Shown piece by piece: positions 7,631 to 59,964 of a stretch of DNA of 64,000 nt (positions are counted from its first letter, which is position 1; each line of letters starts with the position of its first letter). The stretch is taken from NCBI RefSeq assembly GCF_009914755.1, contig NC_060936.1; one strand, written 5' to 3'. Below the pieces are notes generated by a model. That model was not told the origin of the DNA. It saw nothing but the letters and a program-made list of their open reading frames with translations, and did no database searches. The position numbers and the translations under genes were made by a program. The stretch is from the human T2T-CHM13v2.0 reference genome, Homo sapiens.

Positions 7631-7817
7631 ATGTGTGTCAGGAGCTGTTTCCAGTCCCCCCGTCTCCAGTGGGTGTGGAGAACAGCCTTCCTGAAACACA
7701 CCCAGCGCAGGCACCAGGGGTCCCACCGATGGACACACCTTGGAGGCAGCACCTACAGAGCGGTGATTTTCGACATGGGCGGAGTTCTCATTCCTTCTCC
7801 AGGGAGAGTCGCTGCAG
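7631..7817 (+). CDS. ACAD10: ACAD10 exon 2 CDS (exon 7618-7817): Arg-rich mitochondrial presequence and HAD motif I
   Basis: Acceptor cacacag|7618; Kozak CTCACCATG; [30 protein letters not shown]...[12 protein letters not shown]; donor CAG|GTGAGC. Confidence 0.96.
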
Positions 7818-51751: not shown

Positions 51752-51925
51752 GTATTAATGACTGTGACTTGACACAGCTGGGAATCCCTGCTGCAGAGGA
51801 GTATTTCAGGATGTACTGTCTCCAAATGGGGCTCCCTCCCACTGAGAACTGGAACTTCTATATGGCTTTTTCCTTTTTCCGTGTGGCTGCAATCCTACAG
51901 GGAGTCTACAAGCGATCACTCACAG
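51752..51925 (+). CDS. ACAD10: ACAD10 exon 12 (174 nt)
   Basis: gcag|GTATT...CAG|gtaatg; [22 protein letters not shown]...[16 protein letters not shown] (c.1714). Confidence 0.95.
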
Positions 51926-59563: not shown

Positions 59564-59964
59564 GGCAAGCAAGCTCCACATATGCGGAACAAACTGGAAA
59601 GCTGACCGAATTTGTGTCTAACCTGGCGTGGGATTTCGCAGTCAAAGAAGGGTTCCGGGTTTTCAAAGAGATGCCCTTCACAAATCCGTTAACAAGGTCC
59701 TACCACACGTGGGCCAGGCCCCAGTCCCAGTGGTGCCCCACAGGCAGCAGGAGTTATAGCTCCGTTCCAGAAGCTTCCCCAGCTCATACCTCAAGGGGAG
59801 GTCTGGTTATCTCTCCAGAGAGCCTCTCTCCACCTGTCAGAGAGCTGTATCACCGGCTGAAGCACTTCATGGAGCAACGTGTGTACCCTGCAGAGCCAGA
59901 GCTGCAGAGTCACCAGGCCTCAGCAGCCAGGTGGAGCCCCTCCCCACTGATCGAAGACCTCAAG
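59564..59964 (+). CDS. ACAD10: ACAD10 exon 13 (401 nt): kinase C-terminus, linker, start of ACAD domain
   Basis: tag|GGCAA...AAG|gtaaag; [24 protein letters not shown]...[13 protein letters not shown]...LIEDLK (c.2115). Confidence 0.96.

What the first reader, a model, noticed from the sequence alone, without database searches (positions are those of the whole stretch)
59671..59769. Internal mitochondrial-presequence-like linker with two R-S-Y motifs between the kinase and ACAD domains
Seen: M608-P640 ([33 protein letters not shown]) has no Asp/Glu, is Arg/Ser/Thr-rich and contains RSY|H (616-619) and RSY|S (634-637). Established: R-x-Y|S is the R-3 motif left by MPP plus Icp55/XPNPEP3 processing. 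Inference: ACAD10 may be a polyprotein cut after import into HAD-kinase and ACAD halves, or M608 may start an independently imported ACAD-only protein. I recall reports of ACAD10 cleavage, but the site assignment is my inference.
Basis: partly seen in the sequence, partly recalled or inferred. Interest (0 to 1): 0.75.

Follow-up and report, generated by a model that had tools for sequence, protein, structure and literature searches.

The report
Known internal cleavage linker of ACAD10
This stretch of the human ACAD10 gene encodes the flexible linker where the imported protein is cut into a kinase half and a dehydrogenase half, which was already shown by experiment in 2024.

Summary
Window 59671-59769 (+), inside ACAD10 exon 13, encodes M608-P640 exactly as written, with no Asp/Glu and RSY at 616-618 and 634-636.

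The main interpretation is already published. Paquay et al. 2024 (PMC11342911) showed that human ACAD10 is cut in this linker. The HAD-kinase part ends at S617 and the ACAD part starts at S637. Loop deletions or permutations abolish cleavage. Single R603A, R616A or R634A mutants have no effect, and triple or quadruple mutants halve cleavage. MPP is called "likely", not proven.

The acid-free composition alone is not unusual (shuffle P about 0.9). Two exact RSY within 33 residues is unusual (P about 3.5e-4).

New here, from 147 chordate ACAD10 rows: the R616 column is the best conserved linker position (140 of 147). R-x-[Y/F] at site 1 reaches amphioxus. Site 2 is mainly an amniote feature.

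All chordate rows with a recognisable HAD motif carry an N-terminal basic extension and none ends in a strict PTS1. Four unnamed HAD-bearing relatives have PTS1-like ends, no extension and no such linker motif.

M608 is not conserved outside eutherians, so an M608-initiated protein is unlikely. Verdict: real, functional and already known.

The parts
59564..59964 (+). ACAD10 exon 13, residues 573-705: end of the kinase (APH) domain, the interdomain linker and the start of the ACAD domain
   Evidence: Annotation supplied with the finding; AG/GT splice signals seen; residue numbering
59665..59808 (+). Disordered linker, residues 606-653, as delimited by Paquay et al.
   Evidence: Paquay 2024: ADOPT disorder prediction 606-653. 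Deleting or permuting this loop abolishes cleavage. Coordinates computed
59671..59769 (+). The finding itself: M608-P640, an acid-free, Arg/Ser/Thr/Pro-rich, presequence-like core of the linker
59695..59703 (+). Site 1: R616-S617-Y618. The published C-terminus of the HAD-kinase part is S617, so the cut lies between 59700 and 59701
   Evidence: Codons read; terminus from Paquay 2024; R in 140 of 147 chordate rows and R plus Y/F in 116 of 147
59749..59760 (+). Site 2: R634-S635-Y636-S637. The published N-terminus of the ACAD part is S637 (59758)
   Evidence: Codons read; terminus from Paquay 2024; R plus Y/F in 63 of 67 eutherian and 23 of 26 sauropsid rows but only 12 of 54 other rows
59701..59757 (+). 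Y618-Y636: the 19-residue spacer between the two published termini, presumably discarded (inference)
   Evidence: Follows from the termini S617 and S637; its fate has not been shown
7631..7732 (+). N-terminal presequence, residues 1-34, which brings the whole precursor into mitochondria
   Evidence: 7 K/R and no D/E. The legend of Paquay Fig. S4e says the mature protein starts at T35. A comparable basic extension precedes the HAD motif in all chordate rows examined that have that motif

Best explanation
The stretch encodes the core of an internal presequence-like linker that makes ACAD10 a mitochondrial polyprotein.

The precursor enters the matrix through its N-terminal presequence, and the mature protein starts at T35. 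The unfolded linker is then cut at two sites, each with an arginine two residues before the scissile bond and an aromatic residue just after it. Site 1 is R616-S617|Y618 and site 2 is R634-S635|Y636. At site 2 one further residue (Y636) is removed, leaving S637.

The products are a HAD-kinase enzyme (35-617), an ACAD enzyme (637-1059) and a 19-residue spacer.

Shown in print: the cleavage, both termini, and the dependence on linker sequence. Inferred: that MPP makes both cuts, that an Icp55-type aminopeptidase (XPNPEP3 in human) removes Y636, and that the spacer is degraded.

Added here: site 1 is the ancestral chordate site, and site 2 is mainly an amniote addition.
For: Paquay 2024 (PMC11342911; abstract, sections 6, 12 and 23 read, supplement legends):
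- A band of about 60 kDa for the N-part in mouse tissues and HepG2 is lost in knockouts.
- HA- and FLAG-tagged halves separate.
- A GluC peptide ends at S617, and an abundant peptide starts at S637.
- Loop deletions, permutations and replacements block cleavage.
- TargetP and MitoFates predict both sites on serial truncations.
- The triple R603/616/634A mutant halves the cleaved products.

Ye 2026 (PMC13596139, passages) cites the cleavage and uses human ACAD10 residues 41-617.

Precedent comes from yeast Arg5,6, which purified MPP cuts at an internal RSY in an iMTS-like segment, with predicted Icp55 trimming (Friedl 2020, PMC8734313).

Conservation in 147 chordate rows:
- R616 is R in 140 of 147 rows, the top linker column at 0.95 against a median of 0.44.
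- R-x-[Y/F] at site 1 occurs in 73 of 80 non-eutherian rows, including amphioxus, hagfish, lamprey and sharks.
- R-x-[Y/F] at site 2 occurs in 63 of 67 eutherian and 23 of 26 sauropsid rows.

ACAD11, which is peroxisomal and not cleaved, lacks the insert.
Against: Single R-to-A mutants cleave normally. The triple and quadruple mutants still give about half the cleaved product, and S637 remains the dominant N-terminus. The authors therefore leave open another protease, or arginine-independent MPP action.

No MPP depletion or in vitro MPP assay on ACAD10, and no XPNPEP3 test, was found.

In eutherians site 1 is degenerate. Only 43 of 67 rows keep R plus Y/F; the Y618 column holds H in 14 rows, C in 6 and L in 1, two rows have G for R616, and one model lacks the linker.

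Seven of the 147 rows lack R at site 1. Two of them are gene models missing the whole linker.

The acid-free composition is not statistically unusual.

I could not run TargetP, MitoFates or iMLP myself.
Confidence: 0.8

Rival explanations
1. The linker is cut, but mainly by a matrix protease other than MPP that recognises the disordered loop. The R-x-Y motifs are only partly relevant.
For: The triple and quadruple arginine mutants keep about 50% cleavage with the same S637 N-terminus, and single mutants have no effect. The authors state that other proteases might contribute. Site 1 loses its aromatic residue in 21 of 67 eutherian rows.
Against: Both published termini fall exactly where an R-2 cut, and an R-2 cut plus one-residue trimming, would put them. 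R616 is the most conserved linker column across chordates. MPP cuts an internal RSY in yeast Arg5,6. The redundancy of three candidate sites can explain the single-mutant results.
Confidence: 0.13
2. M608, or an internal or exon-skipping transcript, starts an independent ACAD-only protein, and the acid-free stretch serves as that protein's own N-terminal presequence.
For: M608 has a purine at -3 and is followed by a presequence-like stretch. Predicted isoforms in a bat and two rodents join exon 2 (residues 1-62) directly to exon 13, giving presequence plus linker plus ACAD-only models (P0070, P0108, P0110). The exon 2 to exon 13 join would also be in frame in human.
Against: The M608 column is M in only 7 of 80 non-eutherian rows. 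The N-part reaches S617, beyond M608, so the same polypeptide spans it. The annotation supplied with the finding lists no transcript starting in intron 12 or exon 13. The exon-skipping models are computer predictions in other species and still use the exon 2 start, not M608.
Confidence: 0.04
3. The composition and the two RSY motifs are chance features of a disordered linker with no role.
For: D/E-free runs of this length are expected by chance (90% of shuffles), and two R-x-[Y/F] within 33 residues occur in 36% of shuffles.
Against: Published cleavage occurs at exactly these motifs and depends on linker sequence. R616 is conserved in 140 of 147 chordate rows in an otherwise fast-evolving linker.
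Confidence: 0.02

Closest known systems
Human ACAD10 internal cleavage as described by Paquay et al. 2024 (Cell Mol Life Sci 81:367)
   Same: It is the same protein, the same linker and the same two sites (S617 end, S637 start). The same arginines were mutated and the same MPP hypothesis was proposed.
   Different: Nothing differs in the core claim. The main text and the supplement legends I searched contain no cross-species analysis of the sites and do not name Icp55 or XPNPEP3. This report adds the chordate-wide conservation of site 1, the later origin of site 2, and the co-occurrence with the N-terminal presequence.
Yeast Arg5,6 polyprotein, cut by MPP at an internal iMTS-like sequence (Friedl et al. 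2020, Mol Biol Cell 31:2657)
   Same: Both are two enzymes of one pathway made as one precursor with an N-terminal presequence. Both have an internal presequence-like linker with an R-S-Y site, a second R-x-Y about 26 residues (yeast) or 18 residues (human) downstream, and predicted one-residue Icp55 trimming.
   Different: In Arg5,6 the single RSY is essential, the second RGY is dispensable, and MPP was shown directly. In ACAD10 both sites are used, a spacer is excised, single mutants are silent, and MPP is not proven. ACAD10 is not mentioned in that paper (0 occurrences).
Yeast Atp25, cleaved three times by MPP into two proteins (Woellhaf et al. 2016, Mol Biol Cell 27:3031)
   Same: It is a composite mitochondrial precursor with more than one internal MPP cut in a presequence-like stretch (abstract seen in the listing; also described).
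   Different: The domains are unrelated (a ribosome-silencing factor and an mRNA stabiliser). I saw only the search listing and citations, not the full text.
ACAD11, the peroxisomal paralogue
   Same: It has the same kinase-ACAD architecture and chemistry.
   Different: It has no HAD domain and no N-terminal presequence, and it carries a PTS1. Its unaligned interdomain gap is 40 residues against 82 in ACAD10, with no R-x-aromatic site in the mouse chain. No cleavage was seen.

Membership tests
Mitochondrial polyprotein processed internally by MPP (Arg5,6 / Atp25 type) | N-terminal cleavable presequence on the precursor | tested here: met
   Residues 1-34 have 7 K/R and no D/E. All chordate rows examined that have a HAD motif carry a basic, acid-poor extension in front of it. 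The published mature start is T35 (legend).
Mitochondrial polyprotein processed internally by MPP (Arg5,6 / Atp25 type) | Two separate functional modules joined by a presequence-like, acid-free linker | tested here: met
   The Pfam architecture of the orthologues is HAD + APH + ACAD. The linker 608-640 has no D/E and net charge +3. I could not compute an iMTS-L/TargetP profile here. It is published as Fig. S4c,d, of which I saw only the legend.
Mitochondrial polyprotein processed internally by MPP (Arg5,6 / Atp25 type) | R at -2 and an aromatic residue at +1 of the internal cut | tested here: met
   R616-S|Y618 and R634-S|Y636 are present in the window. R plus Y/F occurs at site 1 in 116 of 147 rows and at site 2 in 98 of 147 rows.
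Mitochondrial polyprotein processed internally by MPP (Arg5,6 / Atp25 type) | The precursor is split in vivo into two stable polypeptides | not testable with these tools
   Published for human cells and mouse tissues (Paquay 2024).
Mitochondrial polyprotein processed internally by MPP (Arg5,6 / Atp25 type) | Cleavage is carried out by MPP (purified enzyme, depletion or a temperature-sensitive mutant) | not testable with these tools
   Not shown in print as far as I found. Arginine mutants reduce cleavage by about 50% only, and no paper links ACAD10 functionally with PMPCB.
Icp55/XPNPEP3 substrate (R-3 type N-terminus) | R at -3, Y/F/L at -1 and S/A at +1 of the mature N-terminus | tested here: met
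   R634-S635-Y636|S637, with S637 as the published N-terminus. In non-eutherians the same pattern sits at site 1, where R-x-[Y/F]-[S/A/T/G/C] occurs in 70 of 80 rows.
Icp55/XPNPEP3 substrate (R-3 type N-terminus) | The N-terminus shifts by one residue when the aminopeptidase is lost | not testable with these tools
   No such experiment was found. Paquay's main text does not name Icp55 or XPNPEP3.

The most novel reading that the evidence does not exclude
The internal cut site was acquired together with the N-terminal presequence near the base of the chordates, when a peroxisomal (PTS1) HAD-kinase-ACAD enzyme was moved to mitochondria. Site 1 (R-x-Y/F-S-T-W) is the ancestral, chordate-wide processing site. 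Site 2 is a later addition, mainly in amniotes, that in eutherians took over defining the ACAD N-terminus while site 1 relaxed. On this reading, splitting the protein is an obligatory and ancient part of mitochondrial ACAD10 biology rather than a human or mouse peculiarity. Fish, frog and amphioxus ACAD10 should then be cut once, after R-x, at site 1.
Probability: 0.5. Interest if true: 0.4.

Novelty: already known. Interest (0 to 1): 0.22.

Why it matters
ACAD10 is one of the few documented animal examples of a mitochondrial polyprotein cut at an internal presequence-like site. The cleavage separates a HAD-kinase module from the ACAD module. The kinase acts on 4-hydroxyacyl-CoAs and, by a recent preprint, on ether lipids. 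This complicates every localisation, antibody and activity study of "ACAD10".

The core facts are in print, so the finding mainly confirms that a sequence-only reader can recover a real processing site.

The open points worth testing are which proteases act, whether cleavage is needed for function, and whether the site arose with the move from peroxisome to mitochondrion. The conservation data here bear on that last point.

Tried and rejected
- Composition as evidence. The D/E-free run is not unusual, so I dropped it as an argument.
- A first motif tally using fixed distance windows mixed up sites 1 and 2, because sauropsid linkers are shorter. I replaced it with an alignment-column tally.
- Exon 13 alone found no solved structure at E up to 0.01. 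A full-length macaque orthologue did find ACAD11 structures.
- My regular-expression searches for vertebrate ACAD11 among the unnamed representatives failed twice. P0146 was then tied to ACAD11 through its match to chain 8v3v.
- A trend across 70 unnamed kinase-ACAD representatives is not significant. None of the 6 with a linker R-x-[Y/F]-[SATG] motif ends in a strict PTS1, against 26 of 64 without it (Fisher P = 0.078). Many of these sequences are partial.
- The protein atlas gave no usable taxon for two unnamed non-HAD proteins with R-x-Y-S linkers.
- Papers not held: Calvo 2017 N-termini and He 2011. I therefore could not check endogenous N-terminomics or the early transcript data.
- An internal DNA duplication as the origin of the two RSY sites is unlikely. 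The serine codons differ in family (TCC against AGT).

Full report
**Observation**

The stretch lies inside ACAD10 exon 13 (59564-59964), which is bounded by an AG acceptor and a GT donor. Splicing the 16 annotated coding parts that lie in the window gives 881 residues without a stop and places the peptide at 608-640. RSY occurs at 616 and 634 and nowhere else. The peptide has no Asp/Glu, 3 Arg, 6 Ser, 4 Thr and 5 Pro, with net charge +3.

**Is it more than chance?**

The composition is not. In 20,000 shuffles of the 881 residues, 90% had at least one D/E-free run of 33 or more. The real protein has four runs of 30 or more: 1-47, 546-579, 608-640 and 141-170. Two R-x-[Y/F] within 33 residues also arise in 36% of shuffles. 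Two exact RSY within 33 residues arise in 0.035%, but that pattern was picked after seeing it. From the human sequence alone the case would be suggestive at best.

**What is in print**

Paquay et al. 2024 (PMC11342911) settle the main point. I read the abstract, sections 6, 12 and 23 and the supplement figure legends.
- An N-terminal antibody detects about 60 kDa rather than the full-length protein in mouse liver and kidney and in HepG2. The band is lost in knockouts.
- With an N-terminal HA tag and a C-terminal FLAG-SBP tag, the two halves run separately.
- ADOPT predicts disorder at 606-653. Deleting, permuting or replacing this loop blocks cleavage.
- Affinity purification and mass spectrometry show that the N-part ends at S617 (a GluC peptide that GluC cannot have produced) and the C-part starts at S637.
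- TargetP and MitoFates, run on serial one-residue truncations, predict both sites.
- R603A, R616A and R634A singly have no effect. The triple mutant, and a quadruple mutant that adds R623A, raise the uncleaved band and halve the cleaved products, yet S637 remains the main N-terminus.
- The authors conclude that MPP is likely but that other proteases may contribute.
- The mature N-terminus of the whole protein is T35.
- They saw no cleavage of ACAD11 and no stable complex between the two ACAD10 halves.

Ye et al. 2026 (preprint PMC13596139; passages, section 6) cite this cleavage, use human ACAD10 residues 41-617 as the phosphatase-kinase unit, and note that C. elegans ACAD10 lacks a presequence and is peroxisomal (C-terminal S-R-L). 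Rashan et al. 2025 (PMC12440821; term search only) do not mention cleavage.

The numbering in Paquay (R603, R616, R623, R634, S617, S637) matches the window's translation exactly.

**Mechanism**

Both termini fit the rules for presequence processing as set out by Friedl et al. 2020 for yeast Arg5,6 (PMC8734313; outline and sections 6 and 10 read). MPP cuts with Arg at -2 and an aromatic residue at +1, and Icp55 may then remove that aromatic residue.
- R616-S617|Y618 gives the observed S617 C-terminus.
- R634-S635|Y636, followed by removal of Y636, gives the observed S637 N-terminus.
- The 19 residues 618-636 would be released.

The cleavage and the termini are shown. The enzyme identities and the fate of the spacer are inferred. 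The held library has no paper that tests ACAD10 against MPP subunits or XPNPEP3. Searches for ACAD10 with "mitochondrial processing peptidase", XPNPEP3 and PMPCB returned only Paquay 2024 or incidental co-mentions.

**Conservation (new here)**

Three protein searches and one representative search gave ACAD10 sequences. From these I took one row per species where possible, 146 rows plus the human window sequence.
- The rows are 67 eutherians, 3 marsupials, 26 sauropsids, 30 amphibians, 2 lobe-finned fishes, 9 ray-finned fishes, 3 cartilaginous fishes, 4 cyclostomes and 3 amphioxus.
- Isoform duplicates and unnamed rows were left out.
- Two gene models that lack the whole linker (Eschrichtius, Branchiostoma lanceolatum) were kept and count as misses.

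In one MAFFT alignment:
- The R616 column is R in 140 of 147 rows. It is the best conserved column of linker 607-649, with a top-residue fraction of 0.95 against a median of 0.44. Next come P609 (0.85), T620 (0.80), R634 (0.78) and W621 (0.72).
- R plus Y/F at site 1 holds in 116 of 147 rows. That is 73 of 80 non-eutherians, including amphioxus (R-S/H-Y-S-S-L), hagfish (R-T-F-C-T-Y), lamprey (R-P-Y-S-T-S), sharks and chimaera, but only 43 of 67 eutherians. In eutherians the Y618 column holds H in 14 rows, C in 6 and L in 1, two rows have G for R616, and one model lacks the linker.
- In non-eutherians the next residue is S/A/T/G/C in 70 of 80 rows, the classical R-x-Y|S form. In eutherians it is almost always His.
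- Site 2 behaves differently. R plus Y/F holds in 63 of 67 eutherians and 23 of 26 sauropsids, but 0 of 3 marsupials, 9 of 30 amphibians, 1 of 14 jawed fishes, 2 of 4 cyclostomes and 0 of 3 amphioxus. Outside amniotes the alignment of this part is uncertain.

My reading, which is inference, is that site 1 is ancestral to chordates and site 2 is a later addition, mainly in amniotes. Eutherians then rely on site 2 for the ACAD N-terminus while site 1 has relaxed.

**Link to targeting**

In the chordate rows examined for this (a subset of 82 of the 146 named rows, chosen as the longest models), every row with a recognisable HAD motif I has a basic, acid-poor extension in front of it, typically about 40-50 residues (shortest 21, and longer in a few models). 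None ends in a strict PTS1 tripeptide.

The four unnamed HAD-bearing representatives P0124, P0126, P0129 and P0163 differ on all three counts. They begin at the HAD motif (residues 5-12), end in SKL, SRL, SKI or CKL, and have 22-50-residue linkers without R-x-[Y/F]. This agrees with the peroxisomal C. elegans enzyme. It suggests that the presequence and the internal site were gained together. The outgroup is small and unnamed, so whether this happened at the chordate or the deuterostome base is open.

**ACAD11**

A macaque ACAD10 aligns to mouse ACAD11 (PDB 8v3v) with the kinase match ending at chain residue 338 and the ACAD match starting at 378. That is a 40-residue gap against 82 in ACAD10. 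The mouse interdomain sequence, printed, contains an Asp and no R-x-aromatic site.

**The M608 alternative**

- The M608 column is Met in 60 of 67 eutherians but only 7 of 80 other rows.
- The N-part extends to S617.
- The supplied annotation lists no transcript that starts there.
- Predicted isoforms in a bat and two rodents (P0070, P0108, P0110) join exon 2 directly to exon 13. These would give presequence plus linker plus ACAD-only proteins. The same join would be in frame in human. These are computer models that use the normal start codon, and I found nothing for human.
- ORFs from the 'lgn' source that begin at M534 look like partial transcripts.

I rate an M608-initiated protein at about 4%.

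**Comparison and verdict**

The closest known case is the published description of this very site. The closest mechanistic relatives are the yeast polyproteins Arg5,6 and Atp25. ACAD10 meets the sequence-level criteria of that class: a presequence, two modules, a presequence-like linker, and R-2 sites with an aromatic residue at +1. The in vivo split is published. Direct proof that MPP makes the cut is missing.

The finding is real and functional but already known. The added value here is the evolutionary picture, which I did not find in the main text or supplement legends of Paquay 2024 or in the literature searches. The supplements of N-terminome papers that could confirm an endogenous S637 terminus were not available.

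Noticed in passing
P0070, P0108, P0110; human equivalents would be window 7631-7817 joined to 59564-59964: Predicted isoforms in Pipistrellus, Cricetulus and Arvicanthis splice exon 2 (presequence plus the first residues of the HAD domain) straight to exon 13, encoding presequence + linker + ACAD only. The join would also be in frame in human.
   Followed up: partly
Protein lists: No bird and no clupeocephalan teleost (for example zebrafish) ACAD10 appeared among the 120 rows shown in each search. Only basal teleosts (eels, tarpon, bony-tongues) were present. The lists are capped, so this is not evidence of gene loss, though a goose paper does mention ACAD10.
   Followed up: no
P0139, P0243, P0150, P0156 (unnamed representatives): Several kinase-ACAD proteins without a HAD domain, from unknown eukaryotes, have linkers with classical R-x-[Y/F]-S motifs (RRSYHS, RRNYSS, ARAYST, RRAFST). 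These are possibly independent internal processing sites. The atlas gave no taxon.
   Followed up: partly
window 51752-51925 and 59564-59586 (residues 546-579): A second D/E-free run of 34 residues lies at the end of the kinase domain, just upstream of the linker. Another lies at residues 141-170 in the HAD domain. Both fall within what chance allows.
   Followed up: partly
window 59656-59658 (R603): R603 (R-V-F-K), a third MPP site predicted and mutated by Paquay et al., is R in 91% of the 147 rows. It sits in the invariant K-E-G-F-R-V-F segment at the end of the kinase domain, so its conservation may be structural.
   Followed up: partly
Marsupial rows P0367, P0370, P0373: All three marsupials keep R at the site 2 column but have Q, W or L instead of Y/F, while their site 1 is the ancestral R-x-Y-[S/C/G] form. 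The eutherian pattern (site 1 with His, site 2 with Y-S) may therefore have arisen after the marsupial split.
   Followed up: no
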